A DNA stretch of 64,000 nucleotides, taken from positions 1,233,375-1,297,374 of the forward strand of contig CBDCOA010000003.1 of NCBI GenBank assembly GCA_965219585.1. The letters are read 5' to 3'. Positions 10,079-36,831 of this stretch are shown here, piece after piece. The DNA is from Bryobacterales bacterium. GTDB taxonomy: Bacteria; Acidobacteriota; Terriglobia; Bryobacterales; UBA6623. The notes beneath the pieces were generated by a model. That model did no database searches, was not told the origin of the DNA, and worked only from the letters and a program-made list of their open reading frames with translations. The position numbers and the translations under genes were made by a program. The stretch's first letter is position 1. Each line of letters begins with the position of its first letter.

Positions 10079-10198
10079 TCTAGGCGACCGCCGCCAGCCT
10101 GGGCAGATCCTGTCGCAGCGGCCGTCACGCATAGCTTCCGGGGGGCCGCGGACCGGGCTCAAGCCCTGAAGAGCGCCAAGTGTGCCACTCTGGAACCG

Positions 10199-11170
10199 AT
10201 GCGCTTGGCGCCTGGGCCCGAAGACGTTGGCACCCGGCTTGACCGCTTCCTGTGCAGCCGCGTCGAGAGCGCGACACGCTCGCTGGTCCTGCAGTGGATT
10301 CGCTCCGGGAATGTGCGAGTCGACGGAAGCGTCGAATCCAAGGCATCGCGCAAGGTACGCCTGGGCCAATCGATCGAGGTTGAACCGACTGAGCGACCTC
10401 CGTTGCGGGCCGAGCCCGAAGCGATCGATCTCGAGGTCCTCTACGAAGACGGCGACCTAGCAGTCATCAACAAGCCCTCCGGGATGACGGTCCACGCCGG
10501 TGCCGGCACAGTCTCCGGCACCTTGGTCAACGCGCTGCTGCACCGCATGGAATCGCTATCGGGCGCGCCCGGCCAGCTCCGCCCCGGCATCGTTCACCGC
10601 CTGGATCGGTTCACGTCGGGGGCGATGGTTGTGGCCAAGCACGACCGTTCCCACCAGCGGCTGCAGGAACAGTTCCAGCAACGCAACGTGCTCAAGCTCT
10701 ATTGGGCCGCAGTCGAGCGCCCGATGCCCGAAGATCCGCACGACGACCCCAAGTTGCTGCGCTACGGCCACCCGGTCAAGCAGGACGGCGCCTGGTGGCT
10801 GCGGACCCAGATGCCGATTCGCAGGGACAATCACAACCGGATCAAGATGGCCGTGGCGTTGAGCGGCCGCGAGGCGCAAAGCGACGTCCGCTGCCTGCGC
10901 AGCTCGGCAAGGTACTCGCTGGTCGAAGTGCGCATCCATACCGGGCGCACGCACCAAGTTCGGGTGCATCTCGCCGCGATGGGGCATCCGGTCGTGGGCG
11001 ATTCGCTCTACGGCGCCCGCAAGACCCTGCCGGAGATCGGCACGGCCGGACGCTATCTGCTGCACGCAAGAGTGCTGGAATTCGACCATCCCGGGAACAG
11101 CGAGCGCATGCGGCACGAGGCACCCCTATCGAGCGAATTCAACGCTCATCTGGCCCTGCTCGGTCTATAA
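10199..11170 (+). CDS. rluD: RluA-family 23S rRNA pseudouridine synthase
   Basis: N-terminal S4-like domain (RLDRFL......RS....WI..G.V.VDG) and catalytic block HRLDRFTSGAMVVAK, plus HQVRVHLA. Confidence 0.85.
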   Translation: MRLAPGPEDVGTRLDRFLCSRVESATRSLVLQWIRSGNVRVDGSVESKASRKVRLGQSIEVEPTERPPLRAEPEAIDLEVLYEDGDLAVINKPSGMTVHAGAGTVSGTLVNALLHRMESLSGAPGQLRPGIVHRLDRFTSGAMVVAKHDRSHQRLQEQFQQRNVLKLYWAAVERPMPEDPHDDPKLLRYGHPVKQDGAWWLRTQMPIRRDNHNRIKMAVALSGREAQSDVRCLRSSARYSLVEVRIHTGRTHQVRVHLAAMGHPVVGDSLYGARKTLPEIGTAGRYLLHARVLEFDHPGNSERMRHEAPLSSEFNAHLALLGL

Positions 11171-23420: not shown

Positions 23421-23639
23421 CGCTCCTCCAGGCATGGCTTCGATCCGTCCTCGCGCCGCTTCAGTGGATCGTGCTTGTGCAATCTTCCGGCGCTCACGGC
23501 GCTTCCAGATTCGCTCCGAGCGCCCGCAGCACTTGCGACCCCTCGCTGCCTTGGCCGCCGTTGACACACTCCCGCGCCTTGCGCTGGCCGCCCGGCAACT
23601 CGAGCTCCACTAAGCTGCCCGTCTACAGCGCGCCCCAGA

Positions 23640-24235
23640 CACCCGCGGATTGAGCAGATCCAGCCCGGCCGCCGCCAGCTTTCGCTAGAGTCGATGACGC
23701 TGGAGGAGCTGCTGGACGATCTGCCGACGGTCTGCGACACAGGCGTGGAGCGCAATTCGAGAGTGCATCAGGAGAGCGATCCGAGTTGCACATTGACACG
23801 ATCACCGGGGGACTCCCGGCAAGTTGCCTGCTGACCCCGGATTCGCTGCATGACAGCCAGCGGGCGATCCGACTGGCGCAGTTTACGGCAGGCAGGTGGA
23901 GAGCCCGTAAGAGCTGATGGACCGCGCCTACGATGCGGACGAAATCCGGCCCTGCAGCCTCCAGCTGGGGTACCTGCCACTGATCGACAACAACCCGCGG
24001 CGGGTTGCGCAGAAACAGTCGGAGTTGTAGCGCGAGGCGCTGGCCCAGCGCGGCATTGGACAGCTGCCGCCGCAGATGCGCCGTTACCGCGACTGCTCGC
24101 CAGTGGAGCGGGTAATCGGGCGGCTCGAAGACGAGTTCGGAGGGCGGCCCGTGCGCGTGCGCGGACACGCCAAGTTGCCCTGGCACCTAATGTTTCGGCA
24201 TCGTGGCGCTGACAGTCGACCAGTAACCGCGCCTG
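23640..24235 (+). pseudogene. decayed IS4/IS5-type (DDE_Tnp_1-like) transposase
   Basis: Transposase-like peptides sit in three different frames separated by stops: LHIDTITGGLPASCLLTPDSLHDSQRAI; LMDRAYDADEIR...LPLIDNNPRR; YRDCSPVERVIGRLEDEFGGRPVRVRGHAK. The 5' extent (possibly from 23434) is uncertain. Confidence 0.65.
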
Positions 24236-24455
24236 ACGCTGTGCGTGCAGCGTCGGCCGGCGGGCAAGGATCGCGGGGCCCGGAATGGCAGGGAAAAGGG
24301 AGCTGCGCCTAGCTCTGGAAGTGGCCCAGCCGAATTCGCTCAACTATAAGCGTTGTTTATCGTGATTACCGTATCTATTGCCACTGATGATCAGTGACGG
24401 CATGAAACTCATGTCGGGAACTCGCTTCTGGCAGGCCAGCGGGCAATCTGGAATT

Positions 24456-24485: not shown

Positions 24486-24569
24486 ATCGCTTTGCGCACG
24501 CCCCCTGCGATGGTCCGGCTAGCTCCGTAACGCGCACTGTGCAGGCTCTATCGGACCCCTAATCAAGAT

Positions 24570-24658
24570 GCTGGAGTGGCGGAATTGGCAGACGCACTGG
24601 ACTCAAAATCCAGCGCCCCTTACCGGGCGTGAGGGTTCGACCCCCTCCTCCAGCACCA
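24570..24658 (+). tRNA. tRNA-Leu (anticodon CAA), type II with long variable arm, CCA encoded
   Basis: Folded by hand. Acceptor GCTGGAG / CTCCAGC, anticodon stem CTGGA/TCCAG with loop CTCAAAA, long variable arm, T-arm GAGGG-TTCGACC-CCCTC, discriminator A plus CCA. Confidence 0.9.
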
Positions 24659-26043
24659 TGCCACCAATCTCACGCAGCAGCACAATCGCGCTCGGCAATT
24701 GCGGCTGGCCAGCATGGACACACCGCGCCTCCATCGGAATCGTGCTCTTCACGCTGGCCGTCGCCGTGGCACAGGCCCAGAGCAACGCTCCGGCGGAGCC
24801 AAGATACACGCTCCGCCACGGCATCGGCGACGACATGCCGGATTGGCTGTCGCTCGGCGGAGAGTTTCGCGTCCGCGTCGAGGGCCGCAGTGGTTTGGGA
24901 TTCTCTGCTGACAGAAACGATGACTACAGCTTGTGGCGGGTGCGCGTCGACATCGGCATCCAACCGGTCGATTGGCTGAAGTTCGGGTTTCAGGGGCAAG
25001 ATGCGCGGGCGCCCGGGATCCGGGACAGCGTCCCCAACATCGGCGCATTCAGCGACGGATTCGACGTGCGCCAAGCGTACACCCAGCTAGGCCGCGACGA
25101 TTCGCCGGTAACTGTCACGGTCGGGCGGCAGCTGTTGGCTTACGGTGACCAGCGCCTGGTGGGGGCCCTTGACTGGGCCAACACGGCAAGGGTGTTCGAT
25201 GCCGTCAAGGTCCGCATTCGACGGCCGGGTTCCGAACTCGATATCTTTTCCGCATCGGTGGTTCAGAACGACCCGGGCCGCAGAATCAACCAATCTGCGG
25301 AAGGCAACAACCTGCACGGCGTCTATGGGTCCTTCAAGAGATTGATCCCGAACGCGATCTTGGAACCGTACGCCCTGTGGCAGACCACCCCGTTGGCCAC
25401 TAACGAACTCAACATTCGCGGCGACCTAGACAGATACACGGCAGGCATGCGGGTTTGGAACGATGATTTGGGGCCGTGGGACTACAATGGCGCGTTTGTT
25501 CGTCAGTGGGGCAACCTAGCCGGGGCCCCGATCGAGGCGTGGGGCTACTACGCCGAAGTCGGCCACACGCTCGACGCCTCGCTGTCGCCGCGCCTGTTCG
25601 CGGAATACACGTTCGGGTCGGGCGACGAGGATCCCGCCGACGGCAAGGTCGGCGGATTCGTGGATGTGTACCCGACGGCGCACCGCTGGTACGGCTACAA
25701 CGATCTCGTCGGGTGGCGCAATGTCAAGAACATCCGGCTCGGCACAGAATTGTGGCCCAGCCCCGAGGTCCGGCTGCAGTTCGACTATCACTCCTTTTGG
25801 CTTGCCAGCAGGCGCGATGCCCTTTACAATGTCGGCGGGCGGCTGTCAGTGAGGGCACCGGAGGGAGGCGCGGCCGAGACGAAGATCGGTGACGAAGTGA
25901 ACGCTACCCTAGCCTATGATCCGAGCAAGGTGTTTGGCATCGAGGTTGTAGCGGGTTACATGTTTCCGGGCCCGTTCCTGAAAGCCAACAGCCCCGGGCA
26001 CGGCAATGCCTTCACCTACCTTTCGTTCATCTACAGGTTCTGA
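24658..26043 (+). CDS. outer-membrane porin, alginate-export-like family
   Basis: Signal peptide ...IVLFTLAVAVAQAQS, alternating beta-strand pattern and C-terminal ...YLSFIYRF. The block WLSLGGEFRVRVE...D.....WRVR resembles the alginate-export family as I remember it. The start is uncertain: the first ATG shares one base with the tRNA CCA end, and a downstream GTG is possible. Confidence 0.6.
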   Translation: MPPISRSSTIALGNCGWPAWTHRASIGIVLFTLAVAVAQAQSNAPAEPRYTLRHGIGDDMPDWLSLGGEFRVRVEGRSGLGFSADRNDDYSLWRVRVDIGIQPVDWLKFGFQGQDARAPGIRDSVPNIGAFSDGFDVRQAYTQLGRDDSPVTVTVGRQLLAYGDQRLVGALDWANTARVFDAVKVRIRRPGSELDIFSASVVQNDPGRRINQSAEGNNLHGVYGSFKRLIPNAILEPYALWQTTPLATNELNIRGDLDRYTAGMRVWNDDLGPWDYNGAFVRQWGNLAGAPIEAWGYYAEVGHTLDASLSPRLFAEYTFGSGDEDPADGKVGGFVDVYPTAHRWYGYNDLVGWRNVKNIRLGTELWPSPEVRLQFDYHSFWLASRRDALYNVGGRLSVRAPEGGAAETKIGDEVNATLAYDPSKVFGIEVVAGYMFPGPFLKANSPGHGNAFTYLSFIYRF

Positions 26044-26225
26044 TTTCGTGGCAACCTCCCCAGGCAGCCTCGCGGCGAGTCAAGTCCCACGTCAGCATGT
26101 CAGCATTGATGGAACAGGCTAGTGGTATGCTAGGGACTCACAAATTGGTAGGCTGTTCGGCAGGCGGCGCTCTTGGTGCGTTAGCATGGGTGGGCGGACG
26201 GTGTCAGGCGCAGGAGTGCTAAGAG

Positions 26226-26564
26226 ATGGAACTTGACTTTGAGCGAACGGATGGCTTGGTGGTCATCAACGGCTGTACGCGAATCGATGGCAGCAACGCC
26301 CGAGATTTCGAGAAGGCGCTCCGTGACATTGTTCAGGACGACGACCGCGCGCTGTTGCTTGACTTTGAACCGCTTACATATATCAGCAGTGCCGGATTGC
26401 GTGCGATTCTGCTGACCGCCAAGAACCTCCAGAAGCGCGATGCCGGATTCGGCATCTGCAAACTCGCGCCACCGATCCGCGAGGTCTTCGCGATCAGCGG
26501 CTTTGACAAGATCATCGCGACCTACGAAACCAAGGACGAGGCAATAGCGGCGCTCACGGGCTAG
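26226..26564 (+). CDS. STAS-domain anti-sigma-factor antagonist
   Basis: 112 aa with LDFEPLTYISSAGLRAIL (phosphorylatable Ser context) and the ...FAISGFDKI...Y....EA ending typical of SpoIIAA/RsbV-like proteins. Confidence 0.85.
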   Translation: MELDFERTDGLVVINGCTRIDGSNARDFEKALRDIVQDDDRALLLDFEPLTYISSAGLRAILLTAKNLQKRDAGFGICKLAPPIREVFAISGFDKIIATYETKDEAIAALTG

Positions 26565-26790
26565 AGTTCGGCTAGCTCAAGCAAACTGCCGTCTGCGTCC
26601 TCGGTACGAACTCCGCGGTTGGCTTGGCGCTAGATCCCGTACAGACTGGTACGATCCCGTCGCTCCAGACTGAGGAGCGCTGCTGATTCCCTTGCCGTCC
26701 GCTTGACACGCCTGCCTCGCTTGCGGGTATGGCTGCACTCGCAGAGGGAGCATCGGTCCGAGTTCGGCCAGGCCATTAGGCCTTATATTC

Positions 26791-26825
26791 GAGAGTGCTC
26801 AGAAACGAAATCTGGCGGGAACGTT
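26791..26825 (+). repeat. left inverted repeat of the IS1595-type unit
   Basis: GAGAGTGCTCAGAAACGAAATCTGGCGGGAACGTT. Confidence 0.75.
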
Positions 26826-26854
26826 CCACTATCGACCGTACCCACAACGACCTC

Positions 26855-27380
26855 ATGAGTGCTTACGAAACGGCACGAAACCATACGACGATGGGATCCG
26901 GACGGAGGGACCACAAGTCCCTCACGATCATCGAGCTGCTGCGCAAGTTCCCGGACGATGTAGCGGCGGAAAGGTGGATCGAGTGGATTCAAGGTGACTG
27001 CCAAGCCAGTTCCTTCCACCGATACCAAGACCCAGGGAGGATTCGTGCGGGATTCGGTGGAGCCGGGCTCCGCAGTGTAAGCCGAGGGATCCGGCCCCTA
27101 CGGGTATCTGCGGGAGTACACCCATGAGGCGGTGAATCTCAGCGCGCGCGAGTACGTGCGCGACGCGGTTCACACGAGCAACATGGAGGGCTTCTGGTTG
27201 CTGTTCGAGTGCGGCTACTGCGGCATCCATCACTCGATGACAACCAAGCACCTGCATCGGTACCTGAACAAGTTCAGCGGACGCGCCGGGATCTGCAGCA
27301 TAGATACCATGGAGCAGATGGAGTGCATGATTCGGAGGATGGTCGGCAAGACGCTTACGAACAAGAGGCTGACCGTATGA
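26855..27380 (+). pseudogene. IS1595-family (ISXO2-like) transposase, internally deleted and interrupted
   Basis: The N-terminal piece SLTIIELLRKFPDDVAAERWIEWI jumps frame into a late-DDE-domain piece VTAKPVPSTDTKTQGGFVRDSVEPGSAV*AEGSGPYGYLREYTHEAVNLSAREYVRDAVHTSNMEGFW...KHLHRYLNKFSGR. There is an in-frame TAA at 27078-27080. The zinc-ribbon and most of the catalytic core are missing. Confidence 0.7.
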
Positions 27381-27597
27381 GCAGGCAGGAAAGCGACCGT
27401 CTGGGCCGGCCGGAGACCTGTGTGTTGAAGATTAGCCTCGCCACCGAGGAGACCGTCCGGCGCATGTTCGCCTCCGGGTTGCCACTCAAGAAACGGAAGG
27501 GGACTTCATCGAAGCCTGACGAGCCAGTCCGGGCCAGCGACTGGGGCCATGCTGGCACGGCGGGTACCGATGATCGTGGGCTCCGCTGAACGCGCCC

Positions 27598-30465
27598 ATG
27601 ACACCGTACGAGTTCATCGCCAAGTGGCGAGCCTCCCAGTTGAAGGAGAGCTCTGCGTCGCAAGAGCACTTCATCGACCTGTGCCGGATGCTCGGCGAGC
27701 CGACACCGGCCGAGGCCGATCCGACCGGTGAGACGTACTGCTTCGAGCGGGGTGCTCGCAAAGACACTGGCGGGGACGGCTGGGCCGATGTCTGGAAGCG
27801 CCACCACTTCGCTTGGGAGTACAAGGGGCAGCACGCGAACCTCGACGCCGCGTTCGACCAGCTGCGGCAGTACGCGCTGGCGCTGGAGAACCCGCCGCTG
27901 CTGATCGTCTCGGACATGCTACGGTTCCGGATCCGCACCAACTGGACCAACTGCGTCTGCAAGACCTACGAGTTTGGACTCGATGACCTTGCCGACGCCG
28001 CAGCTCGCGACCTCCTCAAGTGGGCGTTTTCAGACCCGGAGCGGCTGCGGCCAGGCGAGACCCGGCAGGCACTCACGGAACGTGTCGCGGCGTCCTTTGC
28101 AGCGCTTGCGCACTCGTTGCGCGAGCGCGGCCACGACCCGTACGCGGTCGCGCACTTCGTCAACCGGCTCGTCTTCTGCATGTTCGCGGATGACGTGGGG
28201 CTGCTGCCGAGCCACATGTTCGCACGGATGCTGGAACAGGCGCAGCGCACGCCGGCACAATTCGCGGCCCTTGCGGGCAATCTGTTCCGGGCGATGGCCA
28301 CTGGCGGCCTAGTAGGATTTGAGCCGGTCGACTGGTTCAACGGAGGGCTGTTCGATGACGCCACTGCGCTACCGCTGCAGAAGTCCGACATCGACATCGT
28401 GCTTGCCGCATCGCGCTTGGACTGGTCGGAGATCGACCCGTCGATCCTCGGCACCCTGTTCGAGCGCGGGCTGGACCCTGACAAGCGCGCCCAACTCGGG
28501 GCGCACTACACCGACCGCGACAAGATCATGCTGCTGGTTGAACCGGTCGTGATCCGCCCGTGGCTTGCCGAGTGGGCCGCGGAGAAGGCGGAGACCGCCG
28601 CCGGGCTGGAGAGTGCCGAAGCAGCCAAGTCACCGGCCACTCGCACGAAGCGGCGGAACGAGGCCCAGCGGCGGTACCGGGCGTTCCTCAATCGCCTGAG
28701 AGCGTTCACGGTGCTAGATCCGGCATGCGGCTCGGGCAACTTCCTCTACCTCGCCTTGCAGGCGCTGAAGGACTTGGAGCACCGCGTACAACTCGAAGCG
28801 GAGGCGCTGGGCTTCGAACGGGCGTTCCCGGAACTCGGTCCGGCCAACGTCAAGGGCATCGAGATCAATCCGTATGCGGCTGAGCTGGCCCGGGTGTCGG
28901 TCTGGATCGGCGAGATCCAGTGGATGCGACGCAACGGCTTTGCTGAGGGCCGCGACCCGATCCTCAAGCCGCTCGACACCATCGAATGCCGCGATGCGAT
29001 CCTTGCGCCGGACGGCACCGAAGCGGAATGGCCGGAGGCGGATGTCGTGATTGGTAACCCGCCGTTTCTGGGCGCGTGGCGACTGATCGCGCACCTCGGT
29101 GAGGACTATGTTTCCCGAATGTCGACGGTCTACGCGGGTAGGGTATCTGGCGTAGCGGATCTTGTCTGCTATTGGTTCGAGAAGGCCGGGCGACAGATCG
29201 CGTCAGGAAGGGCGCGGCGGGCCGGACTCGTGGCAACGAATTCGATCCGGGCTGGCGCCAATCGGAAGGCGCTCCACGTGGCGACGAAAGCACGCCCGAT
29301 CTTTGAGGCGTGGAGCGACGAGCCTTGGGTGATCGATGGTGCCGCCGTCAGGGTGTCGTTGGTTTGCTTTGGACGCCCCGATGACATACCGGCTGAGAGC
29401 CGACTCGACGGCCAGTGCGCCGAAGAAATCTATACGGACTTGACGGCGCGGCGTGGCAGTATCGGCATCGACGTCACTGCGGTTCGGCGGCTCCAGAAGA
29501 ATGCTGGGCTCGCGTTTAGGGGCGACGAGAAGGGTGGCGCTTTCGATGTCGAAGGCCATCAGGCGCGTGAGTGGCTCCGGCTGCCAGCGAATCCGCACGG
29601 CCGAAGCAATGCGGATGTCCTGAAGCCTTGGATGAACGGGATGGACCTTACCCGGCGGCCAGCTGGGAGATGGATCGTCGACTTCGGGTGGACAATGGCG
29701 GAGGCCGATGCGGCCCTGTACGAAGAGCCGTTTCGATGGGTGCAGGACCATGTATACGATGTCTACATGAGCAAGCCGCGAGGGCCCCGAAGCAAGCCTC
29801 GTCGCAAGCACTGGTGGCGACACGCCCGCCCATTCCCCGAGATGCGGCAAGCACTTGATACCGTAACGCGTTGCGTCGGAACTGCGCGCGTCGCAAAGCA
29901 TCGCCTGTTCGTGTGGCTCGACGCGCGTGTCTGCCCGGACTGCAAGGTCGTCGTCATCGTACGCGATGACGACACGACTTTCGGACTCCTGCACAACCGA
30001 TTCCACGAACTCTGGTCGTTGCGACTGGGTAGCTGGCATGGAGTCGGCAATGATCCGGTCTATACCCCGAGCACGACGTTCGAGACGTTCCCGTTCCCGC
30101 CAGGCCTGACGCCGGACATCCCGGCCAGCGAGTACGCCGACGACCCGCGGGCCATGGCTGTAGCTCATGAAGCCCGAAGGTTGGTCAAGATGCGGGATCG
30201 CTGGCTCAACCCACCGGAGTGGGTCGAGTGGGTGGATGAGCCGGTGCCCGGCTACCCAAAGCGGCCAGTCCCGCGCAACGAAGGCTCCGCAAAGGCTCTC
30301 AAGAACCGGACGCTCACAAACCTGTACAACTCCCGGCCACAGTGGCTCATGGACGCGCATCAGGCGCTTGACGCGGCTGTGGCAGCCGCGTACGGCTGGC
30401 CCGCAGACATCTCAGACGACGACGTTCTGCGCGCGTTGCTGGCGCTCAACGGCGGTGGTCAGTGA
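27598..30465 (+). CDS. Type IIL (MmeI-family) fused restriction endonuclease / N6-adenine DNA methyltransferase
   Basis: 955 aa. The N-terminal nuclease motif D-X9-E-X-K (GWADVWKRHHFAWEYKG) has the same spacing as MmeI (VDLFWPGILLIEMK, recalled from memory). Also the helical linker LVFCMFADD, SAM motif I VLDPACGSGNFL, motif IV NPPFLG, and a long C-terminal target-recognition region. Confidence 0.8.
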   Translation: MTPYEFIAKWRASQLKESSASQEHFIDLCRMLGEPTPAEADPTGETYCFERGARKDTGGDGWADVWKRHHFAWEYKGQHANLDAAFDQLRQYALALENPPLLIVSDMLRFRIRTNWTNCVCKTYEFGLDDLADAAARDLLKWAFSDPERLRPGETRQALTERVAASFAALAHSLRERGHDPYAVAHFVNRLVFCMFADDVGLLPSHMFARMLEQAQRTPAQFAALAGNLFRAMATGGLVGFEPVDWFNGGLFDDATALPLQKSDIDIVLAASRLDWSEIDPSILGTLFERGLDPDKRAQLGAHYTDRDKIMLLVEPVVIRPWLAEWAAEKAETAAGLESAEAAKSPATRTKRRNEAQRRYRAFLNRLRAFTVLDPACGSGNFLYLALQALKDLEHRVQLEAEALGFERAFPELGPANVKGIEINPYAAELARVSVWIGEIQWMRRNGFAEGRDPILKPLDTIECRDAILAPDGTEAEWPEADVVIGNPPFLGAWRLIAHLGEDYVSRMSTVYAGRVSGVADLVCYWFEKAGRQIASGRARRAGLVATNSIRAGANRKALHVATKARPIFEAWSDEPWVIDGAAVRVSLVCFGRPDDIPAESRLDGQCAEEIYTDLTARRGSIGIDVTAVRRLQKNAGLAFRGDEKGGAFDVEGHQAREWLRLPANPHGRSNADVLKPWMNGMDLTRRPAGRWIVDFGWTMAEADAALYEEPFRWVQDHVYDVYMSKPRGPRSKPRRKHWWRHARPFPEMRQALDTVTRCVGTARVAKHRLFVWLDARVCPDCKVVVIVRDDDTTFGLLHNRFHELWSLRLGSWHGVGNDPVYTPSTTFETFPFPPGLTPDIPASEYADDPRAMAVAHEARRLVKMRDRWLNPPEWVEWVDEPVPGYPKRPVPRNEGSAKALKNRTLTNLYNSRPQWLMDAHQALDAAVAAAYGWPADISDDDVLRALLALNGGGQ

Positions 30466-30492
30466 CCAAGATGCAGAGAGTGTTGATGCCAG

Positions 30493-30527
30493 CAACGTTC
30501 CCGCCCGATTTCGTTTCGGAGCGCTGT
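30493..30527 (-). repeat. right inverted repeat of the IS1595-type unit
   Basis: The reverse complement reads GACAGCGCTCCGAAACGAAATCGGGCGGGAACGTT. Confidence 0.75.
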
Positions 30528-30988
30528 CGTATGTGCCGCAGTTGATCTCGCTGGAGAGCTGGTGCCGGATTTCGAGCTACACGCCGAGGAAGTACTACAA
30601 GAGGCAGGTGCTTCAGCCGGCTCCGCGGTATCTGTAGGCTTGGGCCGAGTCCGGTCTGCCTCGCTGCACTGAGCAGATCAGCGCAGCTTCAAGGGCTATA
30701 AGGCGTTTTCAGCTGCGGAATCTAGGTTAACCGGAAGGCCCGGTGCTCACCGCTAATGCTTGTGGTCTGCTCTGGCTTGGGCTTGTGACTCACCGGGATG
30801 TCCGCAGCGACCGCAGCGTGGCATCGGGCCGAAATGGTAAAGCGGCATATCCCTAAACTGCCGGTGCTCTTCCAAGATTCCGGGTGGCGTACCACGAACG
30901 TGTTTAGGATGTGAGGCCCAAGCCGTAACTGACGATAAGTGATAGTCGATGTGGCAATCTGTTCGATAATTCCCGGACGCGGTGAGGC

Positions 30989-31783
30989 CTAGAACGAGAA
31001 TCCGATCGTGATCTGGACTTGGTTCTTGGACAGATGTGGATCGGCGTCGGTGGCCCAGCGCGTGTAGCTTACTTGCGGCGAGAGGGTCCATTTCCGCCAA
31101 TGCGCGTCGAACCCGATGGCGGCGACAACGCCGTGGTGCGGGTCGTGGATCCGCTTGTAGGGTAAGCGGTTGTACTCGATCCAGAAGGCCGGGCCGGCCC
31201 CGACGAACGGCCGGACTCTCGCCGCCTTACCCTCCAACGCCCCGAAGCGGTACTTCAGCAGGACCGGGATCTCCCAGATGTCTTTGGGCTGGCGCCAACT
31301 CCGGTCGAAGTCAGCGTAGTAGAACCGCAGTCCCGACCCGGAGTACCGGCGCTGGCTCGGCTCGGTCCAGATCGTATCGGTTGCCTCGACGAGCTGCCGG
31401 AGCAGGACGGAGGCCTGCAGCGAGACCCGGTCGGTCAGCTCCGTTTCTGCGAAGATGCCGAGGAGCGGTCGCGAAGGAAACGGCCGCAAATACGAGGCTC
31501 GGCTCACGTTGTGCGCCACCAGGGGCGGCAGTCCCAGCACGGTCGAGCCGTCGTCCGTGACGGTTCCCACATGGTTGATGCCGAGAAACCCCGTGCGGTA
31601 GTCAGGGGTCAGGGTGTAGCCCGCGACCAGCCCCAGCGTCAGCGTGCTGCCGAAGGGGAACCGCCCTGGCGGGTCGTCACTGCGGCCTGCCCGGCTGTGC
31701 GACGCCTCCTCGGCCGCCAGCGGCAGCGCGGTCGCGAGCACAGCCAGGCAGGCCATCGCCCAAGCATGGGAATTACGGATCAT
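30989..31783 (-). CDS. outer-membrane beta-barrel protein (porin-like), unknown specificity
   Basis: I took the start at MIRNSHAWAMACLAVLATALPLAAEE (signal peptide). Alternating amphipathic strands and a C-terminal ...VQITIGFSF (aromatic terminal residue). Confidence 0.55.
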   Translation of the reverse strand: MIRNSHAWAMACLAVLATALPLAAEEASHSRAGRSDDPPGRFPFGSTLTLGLVAGYTLTPDYRTGFLGINHVGTVTDDGSTVLGLPPLVAHNVSRASYLRPFPSRPLLGIFAETELTDRVSLQASVLLRQLVEATDTIWTEPSQRRYSGSGLRFYYADFDRSWRQPKDIWEIPVLLKYRFGALEGKAARVRPFVGAGPAFWIEYNRLPYKRIHDPHHGVVAAIGFDAHWRKWTLSPQVSYTRWATDADPHLSKNQVQITIGFSF

Positions 31784-32501
31784 CTTCCTTCTCCTGTTCC
31801 TTCTCCTGCAGGATCTCCAGCAACTCGATGTCATAGACGAGCGTGGATCCGACCGGGACCTTCGGATGGACGAAGTCGCGGTGCGGCAGGCAGAGCAGGC
31901 GCAGCCGGGATCCGACCCGCATGCTCAGCAGCCCCTCTGTCAGGCAGGGCACGGCCGCCCGCGAGACGCTGATGGCCAGCGACTTGCCCGGCTGCGTCCG
32001 CTCGAACACGGTGCCGTCAGCCAGGCTTCCGCTGTAGGTGATCTTGACCGAGTCCGGCAGCTCGGGCCGGGCTCCCGATCCGCCCCGGACCCGAATCGCG
32101 ATGGCCCCGGAGGGCGTCTGCACCGCGTCTTGGCGCGAGGCAAGCACCTCCTTGCGGTACGCCCTGCCGGCGCGCTCGCGCTGTTGGAAAGCGCTTTCCG
32201 TGCGGGCTGCGGCCAATGCATCGATTCTCGCCCGGCATGCGTCGGCGGACACGCGCGGCGAGCGATCCAGAACGCCGTCTGCGAGTCCCTTGGATACCAG
32301 CTCGAGCTCGGACCCGGAGAGGCGGAACCCGCTGACGGCCTCGGCCAAGGAAAGTCCCAGTGCATAGAGCGTCCTGTCATCCTCGGTGGCGAGTTCCGAC
32401 GCTTCCGGCTGCAGTGCCGGAAGGAATGAGGCCATGCACAGAGCCAGCCAAGCGACTCCGCATGCCGCTGGCAGCCAGTCCGCGAATCTCCCTGCGGGCA
32501 T
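31773..32501 (-). CDS. FKBP-type peptidyl-prolyl isomerase, FkpA/Mip-like (divergent)
   Basis: N-terminal YALGLSLA..... dimerisation-like region. C-terminal FKBP pattern V.T.SG.....V..G.G..P...D.V...Y.G.L.DGTVF......G........VGS.L.L..P......P.VP..STLVYDIELLEI. Several canonical active-site positions differ. Confidence 0.65.
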   Translation of the reverse strand: MPAGRFADWLPAACGVAWLALCMASFLPALQPEASELATEDDRTLYALGLSLAEAVSGFRLSGSELELVSKGLADGVLDRSPRVSADACRARIDALAAARTESAFQQRERAGRAYRKEVLASRQDAVQTPSGAIAIRVRGGSGARPELPDSVKITYSGSLADGTVFERTQPGKSLAISVSRAAVPCLTEGLLSMRVGSRLRLLCLPHRDFVHPKVPVGSTLVYDIELLEILQEKEQEKEDDP

Positions 32502-32502
32502 G

Positions 32503-33084
32503 TCAGAACCTCGCCAAGCCCGCACGCCGGGCCGCGGCTGTGACGCGCTCCGCCTCGATCAGGACGATCTGCAGTACGGAAACCGACTTGCAGGTGCTGG
32601 CCGAGGACCCCAGCAGGGTGAAGTCGAGTTCCAGCAGCTTGCCGCGCCCAACGAATCGTGCCGACGCGATCTTGTGTGTCGGCTCCCACGAAAGATCGGA
32701 GTAGGCTACTCGCGGCTTGAGCCGCCAGCTTCGGTTCGCTAGCAGGGCGAAGAGGTACGAACCTTCCCGCGCCCTATGGCAAGCGCGAAGGCCGTGCGGC
32801 CTGTGCAGCTTGCAGACTGTCTCGTACGGCCTGCTGAAATTTGAGTCCCACTGGTAGCGCAAATTGATCGATCCCTTCTTCATAGGTTTCGGGCGCTTCT
32901 TTCTCGGCCCGATACCGTTGAAAAGCTTTTCGCAGACACAGAATCGGTCCGTGTAGCCGCAATCCGGCTTTCCGTGGTAGAACCCCCGCTCCGAATCTCC
33001 GGGGCTCTCGGGCGGTTCTTGAGCGGGACTGGATGTTGCCAGAGCCAAGGCCATGGCGATCAGGGCGGTTATGCGGATGAGCAT
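32503..33084 (-). CDS. secreted hypothetical protein with Cys-rich N-terminal segment
   Basis: I took the start at MLIRITALIAMALALATSSPAQE (signal peptide). Contains CGYTDRFCVCEKLF, ends ...GLARF, and its stop lies 1 nt from the FKBP start. Confidence 0.5.
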   Translation of the reverse strand: MLIRITALIAMALALATSSPAQEPPESPGDSERGFYHGKPDCGYTDRFCVCEKLFNGIGPRKKRPKPMKKGSINLRYQWDSNFSRPYETVCKLHRPHGLRACHRAREGSYLFALLANRSWRLKPRVAYSDLSWEPTHKIASARFVGRGKLLELDFTLLGSSASTCKSVSVLQIVLIEAERVTAAARRAGLARF

Positions 33085-34376
33085 GTTCTTTGCATCCTTC
33101 GCGCAGGGCTGCTCGCCCTCTGCCTCTCTCATGACCTAACGCTCGCCGGAGCCCTCCGATCACAGATTTTTTTGTGCCGTCCGCCACCCGTGGCGTGCAT
33201 GCCAGCAATGCCCACCCGTCCCCGGGCTTTCACAGGCGCCGGCTTGGTCCAATAGGGCCTCTGCTTGCGGAGAGCTGGATGCCGGCCCGCCGGCTACACG
33301 GGACTACAGGCTGATCGCGGAGGCGTTGGGCAGGCTCTCGAAGCACTGAGGCCACGGCCGGTGCGCAAGGCGTGCGAACCGCCACGGCGGGTGTCGACGA
33401 TCTGATCCGATCGGTCCCATCATGGGGCCAGCCGGAGCAGGGGGCCTTAACCCTGCGGCAGCTACGGCTTCTAAGCTTGCCCGCTCGGCTTCCTCGCGCT
33501 CGGCTCGCCCGCGAGCGTGCTCCAGATCGTAGTTGGCCTGCCGCCATAACCACAATCTCGCGCTGCCCCACCTGATCGACTCCAGCTTCAATGTGGGGGC
33601 GGGAGAAATTCCGGATTGTCCGTGAATCACAGGCGAAAGCGTCTTGCGGCCCGATCCTAGTCCCACAGCGGCATCGCTCACATTTCGTGCTCCGCCGCAG
33701 TCCACAGTGTTCGGCCCGACGCTGTCGATGCCCTCGGGATGGAACTTGCGTCAGGACGAACGAAGCCACCGGGCCCGGCGAGAGTGCGGCTTCCGCCGTC
33801 CGACTAGGCGTCCCACACGAACTTTCCGTCTACCCGGAGACTGGGCATAGGAAACTCGTCGGCTAAATCGAGAGATTGCAGCCCCGAATTGTCGCGCCCG
33901 CAAAAAAGACTGTGATGATTTGCCACTTCGGGAGTCTTGATAAGTAGAGTTCGCGACATGCATGCTTGCCTAATTCCCTTGTTTTTCAGGTTCCAAGATT
34001 CGCGCTCATGCTAGCGGGGATATGCCTATGTGGCCTGTTGCCACCGCTCCAAGCGCAGAAGCTGGTCAGTCTCCCCCTCGAGTGTTGTCGAGGTTTAGGA
34101 ATGACCAGAGGGCTGTCAACGGTATGAGCTTGTCAAGCGGACGAACGATATCGAACAAAACCGGAAACCTCCGCACCACTCACCACACCGTTCTAGCGGA
34201 ACGGCCGTTGATGTTGGCGGCAATGGAGGACATGGCTCGATCCCAGCCGAGCTGCTGGAAGACTTTGTTGACGATTGCAAGGATGCGGGCGCTTCTCGCG
34301 CAGCTGTCGAAGGATCTGGCGTTCAACGCCACGTGCACTGCAACTGGTAACGCACCAAATGGAACAGGGAGGTATC

Positions 34377-35444
34377 ATGCTTCGTTTCACTAGCTCAGTC
34401 GCTTGGCTGACCATCACTATGCAGTGCTTTGCTCAAGAAGCGCTGCCTAGGGTGAGTTTCCTGTCATCGCCGGTCTGCGGCTCGGTCGAATCCGAACCAC
34501 TCTCTTCGCAAGAAGAAATCAAGAGACTTCTAGCAGAGCTCCCGCAAGGGATGGAGCGAGACATTGCCCGACAACTCTTGAACGAAGTTTCTGGAGGACG
34601 CCTCGAGGGCTTTTGCCGCGATCCGCAGAGTGGGGAATTCGTGGCGGCTTCCTCCGGTCGCACGGAAACAGGATCAAGCCAGGTCCGAGTTGCCTTGGGG
34701 AACCGCAGCTTGCCGCGACTCCAAGTTGACGTTTCCATGCTGCCCGAAGGTGTTGGCTTCGGTTACGCCTACCGTCTGTCGAACGGAGTTGGTGCGATGG
34801 CCCCGATCACGACTTGGGGCCTGATGACCCCCTCTACGGGTCGCACGGCGAGGATGACGCATCCAAGCTGGCTAGTCGGGGTTTCGGAGCCACGCTCCGA
34901 CCGAGTCTTGACGGTGACCGCTCGGGAGAGCACAGCAGCAGCCGTGGGGCCAACGCCAAACGCGGGTGGAAGTGACTTGTCTCGCTGGCAGGCGCCATCC
35001 GACCGACATGCGATCCAAGCTGGAGAGAGCCTCTCTCAGTTTGCCATTACGTCGGACCTGCGGCCGGGCTGGACTATGGCATATGTCGGTTCCGACAATG
35101 CCATCGAGCTCCCGCAGCAAGAACTCTCGGAGGAGGTCAGGTCTGGGCTGGACACGCTGTCCAAGCCGGAGCATTACTACACTCCGGTATTGACCATTGG
35201 CCCGAAGTTCGGTCCGGGCACTGATCGGACTTGGATTGCGGGAGACTGGCACGTTGGCGTCCAGATGATGGTTTCCGCCGGTCATCTGTCGGCAGGATCG
35301 CCGTACGTTGTCAAGCTGCTCGGCGCACTCGCGCACATCGCAGCCTCCGCGCCAGAAGCGCAGATTGCCTTGGAAGTTGGGGTCCCTCCGAGCCGGGACG
35401 CGGAAGCTCTTCTCGACAAGGCTGTCCGCATGGCACTGCGTTGA
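34377..35444 (+). CDS. secreted hypothetical protein, paralogue A
   Basis: SD GGGAGG lies just upstream of ATG 34377, followed by a hydrophobic N-terminus. Homologous along its length to the next ORF, with shared blocks Y.Y.(L/V)SNG(V/I)GA, PGWT.AYV.S, IGP(K/R)FG, W.(V/I)G(V/I)Q.M(V/I)S.G.L...SPYV and LLDK..RMA. Confidence 0.65.
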   Translation: MLRFTSSVAWLTITMQCFAQEALPRVSFLSSPVCGSVESEPLSSQEEIKRLLAELPQGMERDIARQLLNEVSGGRLEGFCRDPQSGEFVAASSGRTETGSSQVRVALGNRSLPRLQVDVSMLPEGVGFGYAYRLSNGVGAMAPITTWGLMTPSTGRTARMTHPSWLVGVSEPRSDRVLTVTARESTAAAVGPTPNAGGSDLSRWQAPSDRHAIQAGESLSQFAITSDLRPGWTMAYVGSDNAIELPQQELSEEVRSGLDTLSKPEHYYTPVLTIGPKFGPGTDRTWIAGDWHVGVQMMVSAGHLSAGSPYVVKLLGALAHIAASAPEAQIALEVGVPPSRDAEALLDKAVRMALR

Positions 35445-35471
35445 AGGGATGCTGCTCAGAGAGGTCCAGGG

Positions 35472-36629
35472 GTGTCATTGACGGTTCCGGCAAGAGATCG
35501 ACGAATCCTTGCGTGCCTTGCTCTGGTGTTCTCCATCGGACTGTCGGCAAGGGCTCAGCGGGTGGGGGCCGTCCGGGGCTGGTTCTCGACGCCCAGCTGT
35601 GTATCGGGCGCTGCACCTGTGCCGGGAATTGATGTCGAGGACGGGGCTGCCGACAGGCGGGATGGGTCACCGGCTCTTGCCGAACGGGCTCGCACGATCG
35701 TTAGGTCATTGCCTCAAGGTCGAGCGCAAGAACTGGCGCAAGCACTTGCTCGCTCGCTAGCGCCCAGAAGGCACCTGCGGTACGTTTGCAAGGACGAGTC
35801 CGAAACAGGATATGTGATTCGCTATCCGGAAGATCTCGGGACCGAATTCGTTTCAGAGGCAGAGTTCGTCGAATTCGGCTACGAAGTGCCCAATCTAGGG
35901 CGTCCGGAAATTGAGTTTAGTGTCGTTGCCGTTCCACGAGATGGGACCTTCATCTATTCGTACCAAGTGTCCAACGGAATCGGAGCAACGCGCTCGATCC
36001 GCGCGTGGGACTTCGTGTCTAGTCCAGACGACCGCTCTCTACGATTGGAAGATCCTACCAATTGGAACAGCGGCATTCCCGCACGCGGGTCTGGGGTAGT
36101 ACCGCAGGCTGCGCTTTACGAAGACTTGAGTGGCCCCGAGCTAATGCAGTTGGATTCTCGCGGAAAACTATCCGGCTGGGTTGGGTTAGGTGAGGCTATT
36201 GATCCGGGAGAAACGGCAGGGAGCTTTATGGCTACCTCTAGTTTCCTGCCTGGGTGGACCACTGCCTATGTGAGAAGCAAAGTCGACCTAGAGAAATTCG
36301 CTCTTCCGTTTTCCTTCGGAGAGTTTCCCGAAGCTGTGCAGGAGGAGATACAGTTCTTGAATCGGCGGGAGAACAGGCTTTCGTCCTTGCCAATCATTGG
36401 CCCTAGATTCGGTATGGATGCAGGACGGGAAGCGATTGCAAGGAACTGGCAAATAGGAATACAGACGATGATTTCTCACGGCTGGCTGATGGATGAATCT
36501 CCTTACGTTGCGGAACTCGTGCAGTTCTTGAAGGATCCATCGCAGGTCGATGTGAGTGCAAGTATCAGGTCCGAACCGATGAAAGGCATGGAGTCTCTTC
36601 TTGACAAAATCATTCGCATGGCTTTCTAG
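35472..36629 (+). CDS. secreted hypothetical protein, paralogue B
   Basis: GTG start with signal peptide RRILACLALVFSIGLSARAQ. About 52% GC in a hand-counted 100-nt sample (36301-36400). Paralogous to 34377-35444. Confidence 0.65.
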   Translation: MSLTVPARDRRILACLALVFSIGLSARAQRVGAVRGWFSTPSCVSGAAPVPGIDVEDGAADRRDGSPALAERARTIVRSLPQGRAQELAQALARSLAPRRHLRYVCKDESETGYVIRYPEDLGTEFVSEAEFVEFGYEVPNLGRPEIEFSVVAVPRDGTFIYSYQVSNGIGATRSIRAWDFVSSPDDRSLRLEDPTNWNSGIPARGSGVVPQAALYEDLSGPELMQLDSRGKLSGWVGLGEAIDPGETAGSFMATSSFLPGWTTAYVRSKVDLEKFALPFSFGEFPEAVQEEIQFLNRRENRLSSLPIIGPRFGMDAGREAIARNWQIGIQTMISHGWLMDESPYVAELVQFLKDPSQVDVSASIRSEPMKGMESLLDKIIRMAF

Positions 36630-36831
36630 GCGCGGGCCGTCACGGCGAGGCAGAGCACGATTCATTGGAGAGGCCGCCCTCGATTCCATCGCGCTCAAGG
36701 ACAAGGCTGCCGGCGACACCGAGAGCGTCCGGAATGCCCCCGCATGCACAAGTTGACGGAGTTGTTTCGGCAACAGGCCTAAGCGATTCGAAGGAGCACC
36801 AGTCCGGCGCGCAGGGCCGGGATTAAGCGGC

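What the first reader, a model, noticed from the sequence alone, without database searches (positions are those of the whole stretch)
26791..30527. IS1595-type inverted repeats enclose a gutted transposase and an intact MmeI-family R-M gene (defence gene as IS cargo)
- A 35-nt sequence at 26791-26825 recurs as its reverse complement at 30493-30527, matching at 31 of 35 positions by eye.
- Directly inside the left repeat are the remains of an IS1595/ISXO2-like transposase: an N-terminal FPDDVAAERWIEWI piece fused out of frame to the last third of the DDE domain, with an in-frame TAA at 27078.
- The rest of the unit is one 955-aa MmeI-like restriction-modification ORF. Its stop codon lies 27 nt from the right repeat.
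- The R-M gene therefore lies inside IS boundaries in the position where IS1595-family members carry passenger genes. With a dead transposase, the unit could only move in trans.
- The 8 bp outside each repeat (ttatattc / gtatgtgc, 5/8 identical) could be a decayed AT-rich 8-bp target duplication, which is the size expected for this family.
Basis: partly seen in the sequence, partly recalled or inferred. Interest (0 to 1): 0.7.

Follow-up and report, generated by a model that had tools for sequence, protein, structure and literature searches.

The report
Dead transposon carrying a restriction-modification gene
This is the worn-out remains of a small IS1595-type jumping gene that carried a complete MmeI-type restriction-modification (anti-phage) gene as cargo; the transposase has decayed but the defence gene is still kept intact, which makes it a clear example of a known kind of element rather than something new.

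Summary
Window 26778-30541 is a decayed passenger-carrying insertion sequence ("transporter IS") of the IS1595 family. Its parts, in order, are:
- the left inverted repeat;
- a gutted transposase;
- an intact 955-aa MmeI-family type IIG R-M gene;
- the right inverted repeat.

The decisive evidence is an intact relative, L026. It has 50-nt inverted repeats (96% complementary), a 317-aa IS1595 transposase, the small ORF and an MmeI homologue (83% aa identity). It is 4293 bp long and is flanked by a perfect 8-bp target duplication (TAACGGAT), so the whole unit, R-M gene included, transposed.

Two further loci add support. L028 carries the same backbone in decayed form. L109 carries an MmeI homologue in a different IS1595 lineage, with duplication TTTGAATA.

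Sister elements in Bryobacterales genomes share the backbone but carry an unrelated methyltransferase-HNH fusion in the same slot.

- The inverted repeats run 13 nt further out than claimed.
- The proposed 8-bp "target duplication" is therefore repeat sequence, not a duplication.
- The window copy has no duplication and a degenerate right tip, so it is probably immobile.

MmeI dN/dS is about 0.12, so the gene is under purifying selection. This is a new member of a known kind.

The parts
26778..26827 (+). Left terminal inverted repeat (IRL), about 50 nt: AGGCCTTATATTCGAGAGTGCTCAGAAACGAAATCTGGCGGGAACGTTCC
   Evidence: It aligns along its whole length with the 50-nt repeats of relatives L002, L010-L023 and L026. 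The inner 39 nt pair with the right arm in the window.
26855..26989 (+). N-terminal remnant of the IS1595-family transposase (...SLTIIELLRKFPDDVAAERWIEWI). It stops just before the zinc ribbon.
   Evidence: tblastn matches L026 transposase residues 6-53. blastn matches L002 9378-9502. The start codon at 26855 is inferred from alignment to L026 (inference).
26990..27380 (+). C-terminal remnant of the transposase, in a different frame. It has an in-frame TAA at 27078-27080 where relatives have Tyr of the YTD motif, the second catalytic Asp is replaced (V*AEG against VYTDG), and the stop is TGA at 27378-27380. About 390-440 bp is deleted at 26989/26990, removing the zinc ribbon, the helix-turn-helix and the first catalytic Asp.
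   Evidence: Pfam DDE_Tnp_IS1595 E=9e-8. tblastn covers residues 187-317 of L026. The deletion was mapped against L002, L024 and L026. The translation is shown beside L026.
27377..27589 (+). Small conserved ORF ('orfS', 70 aa). Its ATG overlaps the transposase stop (ATGA), and its stop lies 8 nt before the MmeI start. The first roughly 44 codons are part of the IS backbone. Function unknown.
   Evidence: It is conserved in L024, L026, L028, L111, L021, L016 and L002. Core dN/dS is 0.19-0.35. It matches no Pfam, NCBIfam or PADLOC family. Only 11 cluster representatives among 1.84 billion proteins match it.
27598..30465 (+). Intact MmeI-family (type IIG/IIL) single-chain restriction-modification gene, 955 aa, sitting as the passenger gene.
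   Evidence: Pfam MmeI_hel, MmeI_Mtase and MmeI_C. PADLOC REase_MTase_IIG 4e-297. The alignment to MmeI 5HR4 keeps the D...ExK nuclease motif, DPACGSGNF and NPPF. Homologues align at 100% coverage. dN/dS is 0.11-0.15.
30492..30541 (-). Right terminal inverted repeat (IRR). The inner part (30494-30528) is well conserved. The outer 13 nt (30529-30541) are degenerate, matching the left arm at 6 of 13 positions.
   Evidence: Same-locus relatives L024/L025 keep a complete tip ...AAGGCCC.
30542..36775 (.). 6.25-kb block of ordinary chromosomal genes (outer-membrane beta-barrel protein, FKBP isomerase, unknowns) that abuts the right end. It is not part of the element. It is present in the window and L111 and absent in L024/L025.
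   Evidence: blastn of the window against L024 and L111. Pfam.

Best explanation
Window 26778-30541 is a fossil copy of a passenger-carrying insertion sequence (transporter IS, tIS) of the IS1595 family.

**How the active form works.** The active form is about 4.3 kb. It has 50-nt terminal inverted repeats, a zinc-ribbon plus DDE transposase, a small conserved ORF translationally coupled to the transposase, and one passenger gene. The passenger is a single-chain MmeI-family type IIG restriction-modification enzyme. The transposase acts on the two repeats and moves the whole unit, making an 8-bp target duplication (shown in relatives).

**What happened to the window copy.**
- The transposase lost about 400 bp, covering the zinc ribbon, the helix-turn-helix and the first catalytic Asp.
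- It is now split over two frames and has a stop codon beside the second catalytic Asp.
- The tip of the right repeat is degenerate.
- No target duplication is left.

The copy can therefore no longer move by itself and probably cannot be moved in trans either (inference).

**The passenger gene.** The R-M gene remains full length, keeps its nuclease and methyltransferase motifs, and evolves under purifying selection. The host, or the gene's own addictive behaviour, therefore keeps it as a working restriction-modification gene (inference; activity was not tested).
For: **The repeats are real and non-random.**

**The transposase is a gutted IS1595 transposase.** It hits Pfam DDE_Tnp_IS1595. Its deletion, frame change and stop were mapped against relatives.

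**An intact relative exists (L026/L027).**
- Its inverted repeats are 50 nt and 96% complementary.
- Its transposase is 317 aa, hitting NF033547 at 180 bits (cut-off 75) plus Zn_ribbon_IS1595.
- It has a 74-aa orfS and a 954-aa MmeI homologue.
- It is flanked by a perfect 8-bp duplication, TAACGGAT.
- It is collinear with window 26990-30477 at 80.5% nt identity.

**Other insertion sites carry MmeI homologues inside IS1595-type ends.**
- L028 has a transposase stub, orfS, MmeI and a decayed right repeat.
- L109 belongs to a different IS1595 lineage. It has 26-nt repeats at 96%, an internally deleted 173-aa transposase, and a perfect duplication TTTGAATA.

**Sister elements share the backbone with a different cargo.**
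- The shared backbone is the left repeat, the transposase and the first 44 codons of orfS at 86.7% nt identity, plus the last 80 nt or so.
- In the cargo slot they carry an N6_N4 methyltransferase-HNH fusion, or a truncated remnant of it.
- Each has an 8-bp duplication: AAAAGAAA, CTTTATTC, CATAGAAT, ATTTTTTG or TATCAAAT.

**The MmeI gene looks functional.**
- Catalytic motifs are kept.
- dN/dS is 0.11-0.15 in every pair, including window against the same-locus copy L024.
- By comparison, the window transposase remnant gives 0.46.
Against: - The window copy has no target duplication. Its true flanks are AGGCCATT and TTGATCTC.
- The outer 13 nt of its right repeat match the left arm at only 6 of 13 positions.
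- The right junction exists in two forms among same-locus relatives. L024/L025 have a complete repeat tip followed by GTTCATTG. The window and L111 have a degenerate tip followed by 6.25 kb of other genes. This means the right boundary in the window has been rearranged, and its history is not resolved.
- No genome with an empty site at this locus was found.
- Enzyme activity, expression and transposition were not tested.
- No sigma-70-like promoter was found by the simple scan.
Confidence: 0.9

Rival explanations
1. Accidental juxtaposition. An ordinary IS1595 element inserted upstream of a resident chromosomal R-M gene, and the right-hand repeat is a solo end left by a second, unrelated insertion. 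On this view the R-M gene was never cargo.
For: - The window copy lacks a target duplication and has a rearranged right junction.
- Most MmeI homologues are not next to any IS1595 transposase: 0 of 80 metagenome loci at 51-77% identity, and also L110.
Against: - The intact relative L026 has transposase, orfS and MmeI inside one pair of 96% repeats, with a perfect 8-bp duplication around the whole 4293 bp.
- The window is collinear with it from the transposase through to 12 nt past the MmeI stop codon.
- L109 gives a second unit with its own perfect duplication.
- The gene junctions are tight. The transposase stop overlaps the orfS start, and orfS ends 8 nt before MmeI.
Confidence: 0.03
2. The window copy is still a mobile, non-autonomous element (a cargo-carrying MITE-like unit) that an intact IS1595 transposase elsewhere in the genome moves in trans.
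For: - The left repeat is nearly complete, and the inner 35 nt of both arms are 89% alike.
- Relatives with broken transposases still show perfect duplications: L012, L022 and L109. This is compatible with mobilisation in trans.
Against: - The outer 13 nt of the right repeat, where cleavage would occur, are degenerate, and there is no duplication.
- The same insertion site is shared by five contigs whose internal sequences have diverged by up to 25%, so this copy has stayed in place for a long time.
- No intact IS1595 transposase lies in the 64-kb window.
Confidence: 0.07
3. The passenger gene is no longer a restriction enzyme. It survives only as a methyltransferase, or as a stabilising ('addiction') module that benefited the IS rather than defending the host.
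For: - R-M genes are known to behave as selfish stabilisers (background in PMC2853133).
- In the window protein the MmeI N-terminal nuclease and TRD Pfam models do not reach threshold.
Against: - The N-terminal 100 residues align to MmeI with D...ExK conserved.
- The PADLOC type IIG model matches from residue 1.
- Purifying selection acts over the whole length.
- Sequence alone cannot separate host defence from selfish stabilisation, and the two are not exclusive.
Confidence: 0.15

Closest known systems
Transporter IS (tIS) of the IS1595 family (Siguier, Gagnevin & Chandler 2009; TnCentral/ISfinder definition)
   Same: - It has the structure of an IS: one DDE transposase with an N-terminal zinc ribbon, terminal inverted repeats, and an 8-bp target duplication.
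- It also carries passenger gene(s) inside the repeats.
[quoted passage not shown]
- All of these features are seen in the relatives L026, L016 and L021.
   Different: - The passenger here is a complete 955-aa single-chain R-M enzyme.
- An extra conserved small ORF is coupled to the transposase.
- I could not query ISfinder, so whether this element already has a name is unknown.
- The resemblance of its tip GG..(C)TTAT to the ISNwi1 subgroup rests on memory only.
Transposon-like R-M units of Furuta, Abe & Kobayashi 2010 (PMC2853133)
   Same: - R-M genes flanked by imperfect inverted repeats and 8-bp target duplications.
- The paper's N. gonorrhoeae unit combines 26-bp repeats, an 8-bp duplication, a type IIG homologue and a transposase-like gene (COG3677).
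- The paper also notes allelic diversity in type IIG recognition domains, as seen here between the window and L001.
   Different: - In that case the type IIG gene was truncated and the transposase-like gene was judged a likely inactive derivative, so the authors left the mobilising activity open.
- Here an intact autonomous version (L026) exists with a full-length MmeI-family gene.
- The same backbone is also seen with a different cargo.
MmeI family of type IIL/IIG restriction-modification enzymes (structure 5HR4)
   Same: - Single polypeptide with an N-terminal PD-ExK nuclease, a helical spacer, a gamma-class N6-adenine methyltransferase (DPACGSGNF, NPPF), a recognition domain and a C-terminal domain.
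   Different: - Similarity to MmeI itself is only distant: phmmer E=1e-37, aligned mainly over residues 5-556.
- The protein belongs to a very large, tightly conserved subclade, with thousands of proteins at about 78-83% identity.
- Specificity and activity are unknown.
Non-autonomous deletion derivatives of insertion sequences (MITE-like elements)
   Same: - Internal deletion of the transposase with the ends retained, as in the window copy, L109 and the 1.78-kb multi-copy form in Bryobacterales.
   Different: - These derivatives still carry a large functional passenger gene, so they are not miniature.
- The window copy has also lost a usable right tip.

Membership tests
IS1595 family insertion sequence | DDE transposase with N-terminal zinc ribbon (Pfam PF12760 + PF12762; NCBIfam NF033547) | tested here: met
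   - Window remnant: PF12762 at E=9e-8, 32.7 bits, above the cut-off of 27. The zinc ribbon is deleted.
- Intact relative L026: PF12762 at 7e-42, PF12760 at 1e-7, and NF033547 at 180 bits against a cut-off of 75.
IS1595 family insertion sequence | Terminal inverted repeats bounding the element | tested here: met
   - Window: 39 nt at 87%.
- Relatives: 50 nt at 96%.
- The outer 13 nt of the window's right arm are degenerate.
IS1595 family insertion sequence | 8-bp target site duplication | tested here: not met
   - Window flanks AGGCCATT and TTGATCTC do not match.
- The feature is met in relatives: TAACGGAT (L026), TTTGAATA (L109), AAAAGAAA, CTTTATTC, CATAGAAT, ATTTTTTG and TATCAAAT.
- Same-locus relative L024 shows ATTCATTG against GTTCATTG if a 1-nt slip in a G run is allowed (inference).
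- The failure in the window reflects decay of this copy, not a different family.
Transporter IS (tIS) | Passenger gene(s) unrelated to transposition located between the transposase and the terminal repeat, moving with the IS | tested here: met
   - MmeI lies inside the repeats in the window, L024, L026, L028, L109 and L111.
- Target duplications flank the whole unit in L026 and L109.
MmeI family (type IIL/IIG R-M) | N-terminal PD-(D/E)xK nuclease motif | tested here: met
   GWADVWKRHHFAWEYKG aligns to MmeI GFVDLFWPGILLIEMKS, with D, E and K conserved. The Pfam MmeI_N model itself did not score.
MmeI family (type IIL/IIG R-M) | Helical spacer plus gamma-class N6-adenine methyltransferase with motif I (DPACGxGNF) and motif IV (NPPF) | tested here: met
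   PF20465 at 1.2e-13 and PF20473 at 2.6e-28. VLDPACGSGNFL and VIGNPPFLG align to MmeI.
MmeI family (type IIL/IIG R-M) | Target recognition domain and C-terminal domain | tested here: inconclusive
   - PF20467 (MmeI_C) scores 24.9 bits, below the cut-off of 27.
- PF20466 (TRD) is not reported for the window protein, but is listed for many homologues at about 80% identity.
- PADLOC model PDLC03599 aligns over residues 6-835.
MmeI family (type IIL/IIG R-M) | Cleavage about 20/18 nt from an asymmetric site and single-strand methylation for host protection | not testable with these tools
   Needs enzyme assays or a methylome.

The most novel reading that the evidence does not exclude
This IS1595 lineage may be a dedicated vehicle for single-chain methyltransferase-nuclease genes.
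- One conserved backbone (50-nt repeats, transposase, orfS core) has a cargo slot that has been refilled with unrelated R-M-type genes: MmeI-type IIG in one branch and N4/N6 methyltransferase-HNH in another.
- A second IS1595 lineage (L109) has picked up the same MmeI gene.
- At 4.3 kb this would be among the smallest autonomous mobile R-M units.
- It could explain why one MmeI subclade is so abundant and uniform (thousands of proteins at about 80% identity) in Acidobacteriota-rich metagenomes.
- orfS may couple transposition to cargo expression.
Probability: 0.35. Interest if true: 0.6.

Novelty: new member of a known kind. Interest (0 to 1): 0.42.

Why it matters
- **A mobile defence gene with almost no extra machinery.** A complete, one-gene restriction-modification system can travel inside an insertion sequence that needs only a single transposase.
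- **A worked example of how such a gene becomes fixed.** The vehicle decays (transposase deletion, stop codon, worn repeat tip) while the cargo stays under selection.
- **An unusually clean cargo exchange.** The comparative set shows one IS backbone carrying two different cargoes, and one cargo carried in two different backbones. IS-sized elements rarely show this so clearly.
- **Limits on the claim.** Passenger-carrying IS1595 elements and repeat-bounded R-M units with 8-bp duplications were both described in 2009-2010. The value lies in the example and the family survey, not in a new principle.

Tried and rejected
Rejected. These bases align with the conserved TTATAT(A/G)CC block inside the 50-nt repeats of every relative.
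2. **A second copy of the right repeat at the far end of the 6.25-kb block (about 36.7 kb).** A MAFFT alignment suggested one. Local alignment scores were no better than shuffles: 12-14 against a shuffle mean of about 13.5 and a maximum of 22-27.
3. **Homologue search with the reconstructed window transposase.** It gave only three hits, all truncated proteins. These were still useful as entry points to relatives.
4. **Function of orfS.** It matches no Pfam, NCBIfam or PADLOC family. The word-indexed search found 2 relatives and the exhaustive search found 11 cluster representatives. No structure was predicted because too few sequences were admissible.
5. **Promoter and terminator scan of 26500-30800.** Nothing was found.
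6. **Source of the window.** The exact window MmeI protein is not on record. P0012 and P0023 could not be looked up.
7. **Plasmids.** No close relative of the transposase was found; the best hit is 44% identical.
8. **Viral contigs.** 19 IS1595 relatives at 41-46% identity were found, none with MmeI or orfS nearby.
9. **Literature.** Searches for MmeI together with insertion sequences returned only Tn-seq methods papers. A search for 'ISNwi1' returned nothing useful.
10. **A defence island around the element.** Not supported. The neighbours are ordinary genes: alginate-export-like porin, STAS protein, outer-membrane protein, FKBP, sensor kinase, MFS transporter and GlnE.

Full report
**1. The observation**

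The claimed repeat exists. The repeat finder gives arms 26787-26825 and 30494-30532, 39 nt and 87% complementary. The 24-nt core GAAACGAAATCNGGCGGGAACGTT occurs only at these two places in 64 kb, with zero expected in shuffles.

The sequence just inside the left arm is a broken IS1595 transposase.
- The ORF at 27132-27380 hits Pfam DDE_Tnp_IS1595 at 9e-8, above the gathering score.
- An N-terminal piece (...KFPDDVAAERWIEWI) lies in another frame.
- An in-frame TAA sits at 27078-27080.

The 955-aa ORF at 27598-30465 is MmeI-family.
- It hits Pfam MmeI_hel, MmeI_Mtase and MmeI_C.
- It hits PADLOC REase_MTase_IIG at 4e-297.
- It hits PDB MmeI 5HR4 at 1e-37, with the D...ExK nuclease motif, DPACGSGNF and NPPF aligned.

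**2. Relatives and the true anatomy**

A homologue search with the reconstructed transposase, followed by context look-ups, led to relatives in Bryobacterales (Acidobacteriota) genomes. Aligning their ends with the window's shows three things.
- The terminal repeats of this IS group are about 50 nt long: GGGCCTTATAT(A/G)CCAAAGTGCTCAGAAACGGAATCTGGCGGGAATGTTCC.
- The window element therefore runs from 26778 to 30541.

The real flanks in the window are AGGCCATT and TTGATCTC, which do not match. The outer 13 nt of the right arm match the left arm at only 6 of 13 positions.

Against relatives, the window transposase lacks about 390-440 bp. Window 26860-26983 matches L002 9378-9502, and window 26992-27498 matches L002 9948-10466. 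The deletion removes the zinc ribbon, the helix-turn-helix and the first catalytic Asp. At the second catalytic Asp, relatives read VYTDG and the window reads V*AEG.

Its ATG overlaps the transposase stop, it ends 8 nt before the MmeI start, and it is conserved in all relatives.

**3. The decisive test: is the R-M gene inside the IS in full-length relatives?**

Yes. The window's MmeI protein has thousands of homologues at about 78-83% identity. Context look-ups on six of them gave the results below.

| Locus | What it contains |
|---|---|
| L026/L027 (a 4.6-Mb and a 3.6-Mb contig) | Intact unit: 50-nt repeats 96% complementary; 317-aa transposase (NF033547 180 bits, plus zinc ribbon); 74-aa orfS; 954-aa MmeI homologue (83% aa identity); 4293 bp; perfect 8-bp duplication TAACGGAT |
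| L028 | Third site: transposase stub (residues 239-317), orfS, MmeI and a decayed right repeat |
| L109 | Fourth site, different IS1595 lineage (transposase 47% identical): 26-nt repeats at 96%, internally deleted 173-aa transposase abutting MmeI, perfect duplication TTTGAATA |
| L110 (78% identity) | No IS |

Window 26990-30477 aligns to L026 5381-8877 at 80.5% nt identity without a break.

By contrast, none of the 80 more distant MmeI homologues (51-77% identity) fetched from JGI metagenomes has an IS1595 transposase or orfS within the flanks held. The association is therefore specific to one MmeI subclade.

**4. A modular backbone**

A genome-collection scan with a degenerate repeat pattern found 14 loci, almost all in two Bryobacterales genomes. 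The units fall into three groups.
- **1.78-kb multi-copy form** (L010, L012, L019, L022).
- **Larger units with nested IS110-, IS630- and IS4-like insertions** (L016, L021, L023).
- **8-bp duplications.** Several units carry perfect ones: AAAAGAAA, CTTTATTC, CATAGAAT, ATTTTTTG and TATCAAAT.

Their transposases are intact in L016 and L021, at 329 aa. Their cargo is an N6_N4 DNA methyltransferase fused to an HNH nuclease. It is full length but interrupted in L021, and reduced to a degenerate N-terminal stub in the 1.78-kb form.

L026 and L021 are homologous over unit positions 2-1218, at 86.7% nt identity. That stretch covers the left repeat, the transposase and the first 44 codons of orfS. They are homologous again over the last 80 nt or so, and everything in between differs. 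So the same backbone has carried two unrelated methyltransferase-nuclease genes. L109 shows the same MmeI gene in another backbone.

**5. Selection**

| Sequence compared | dN/dS |
|---|---|
| MmeI, every pair, including window against same-locus L024 (dS 0.24) | 0.11-0.15 |
| Intact transposases | 0.15-0.20 |
| orfS core | 0.19-0.35 |
| Window transposase C-terminal remnant | 0.46 |

The cargo is being maintained while the vehicle decays.

**6. History of this locus**

Five contigs (the window, L001, L024, L025, L111) carry the element at the same left junction, next to the STAS gene. The insertion is therefore old.

The locus is mosaic.
- Flanking genes are about 99% identical between the window and L024.
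- Between the same two, the transposase and orfS remnants are only 75-82% identical and MmeI is 91-96% identical.
- Against L001, the first third of MmeI is 98% identical and the rest only 74-83%.

This pattern looks like allelic recombination, including exchange of the recognition region.

The right junction comes in two forms.
- L024/L025 keep a complete repeat tip (...AAGGCCC) followed by GTTCATTG. This matches the left flank ATTCATTG if one G of a G run is allowed for, so it is a probable original duplication (inference).
- The window and L111 have the degenerate tip followed by 6.25 kb of ordinary genes that L024 lacks.

I could not resolve how this arose.

**7. Comparison with what is known**

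Passenger-carrying IS (tIS) are an established category. [quoted passage not shown]

Furuta et al. 2010 described R-M genes bounded by inverted repeats with 8-bp duplications. One was a Neisseria gonorrhoeae unit with a truncated type IIG gene and a transposase-like gene. They cite the IS1595 paper for R-M or solitary methylase genes flanked by IS elements.

The present element passes the tests for the IS1595 family through its relatives. The window copy itself fails only the target-duplication test, and that is through decay. It also passes the sequence tests for the MmeI family; activity is untested. I therefore file it as a new member of a known kind. The full-length autonomous relative, the cargo swap and the conserved orfS are the parts that go beyond the published examples I could read.

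**8. Verdict**

The window copy is an immobile fossil whose R-M passenger is still under selection. Interest is moderate.

Noticed in passing
window 27377-27589; L026 5768-5992; L021 6484-6642 (-): A small basic ORF (orfS; conserved core ...RNRPGRPETRVLKINL.VEEAVRRMFAYGLPRKKR) is translationally coupled to the transposase stop. It is conserved in both cargo variants of the IS. It matches no known family, and only 11 cluster representatives among 1.84 billion proteins match it. Its function is unknown; a transposition or expression regulator is a guess.
   Followed up: partly
L021 3833-7727; L012 4111-5893; L016 2133-5127; L023 1366-6550: Sister elements in two Bryobacterales genomes share the window element's backbone. 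In the cargo slot they carry an N6_N4 methyltransferase-HNH fusion, or a degenerate stub of it in a 1.78-kb multi-copy form. Several have nested IS630-, IS110- or IS4-like insertions and perfect 8-bp duplications.
   Followed up: yes
L109 4397-8128: A different IS1595 lineage (transposase 47% identical, 26-nt repeats) carries an MmeI homologue 82% identical to the window's, plus a 57-aa ORF. Its transposase has an internal deletion that joins the N-terminal DNA-binding part to the last roughly 20 residues. The unit has a perfect duplication, TTTGAATA.
   Followed up: partly
window 24568-30465 compared with L024 and L001: Strong mosaicism. Flanking genes are about 99% identical between strains, but the element is 75-96% identical (L024). 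Against L001, the last two-thirds of MmeI drop to 74-83% while its first third is 98%. This suggests allelic recombination and exchange of the recognition region at this locus.
   Followed up: partly
window 30522-36775: A 6.25-kb block (outer-membrane beta-barrel protein, FKBP isomerase, unknown proteins) lies between the element's right end and the sensor-kinase gene in the window and L111. It is absent from L024/L025, where a complete repeat tip abuts the kinase side. The breakpoint falls inside the outer part of the right repeat, and the mechanism is unresolved.
   Followed up: partly
window 17113-18840 (-) and about 23500-24350: There is another transposase gene (575 aa, Pfam DDE_Tnp_1) about 8 kb to the left. 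What looks like a remnant of an IS4/IS5-type transposase lies at about 23.5-24.3 kb. The evidence for the remnant is weak DNA similarity to a DDE_Tnp_1 gene in L027 and a C-terminal-like peptide in the 24076-24312 ORF. None of the ORFs tested there gave a Pfam hit.
   Followed up: no
L020 3222-3253 (JAKZSW010000234.1) and L021 about 7710: A 4.5-kb contig binned as 'Candidatus Tectimicrobiota' has the same IS end and the same 28 nt of flank as the Bryobacterales chromosome OZ245359.1. This is either a binning error or very recent sharing.
   Followed up: no
L002-L009, about 9250-10500: In several related contigs the same IS backbone has a transposase split into a 155-aa ORF and a 111-aa ORF. 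In L004-L009 the right repeat is missing within 10 kb. The regions downstream are full of other transposases, DruA-domain genes, a group II intron reverse transcriptase and PIN/HEPN genes, so they are heavily rearranged.
   Followed up: no
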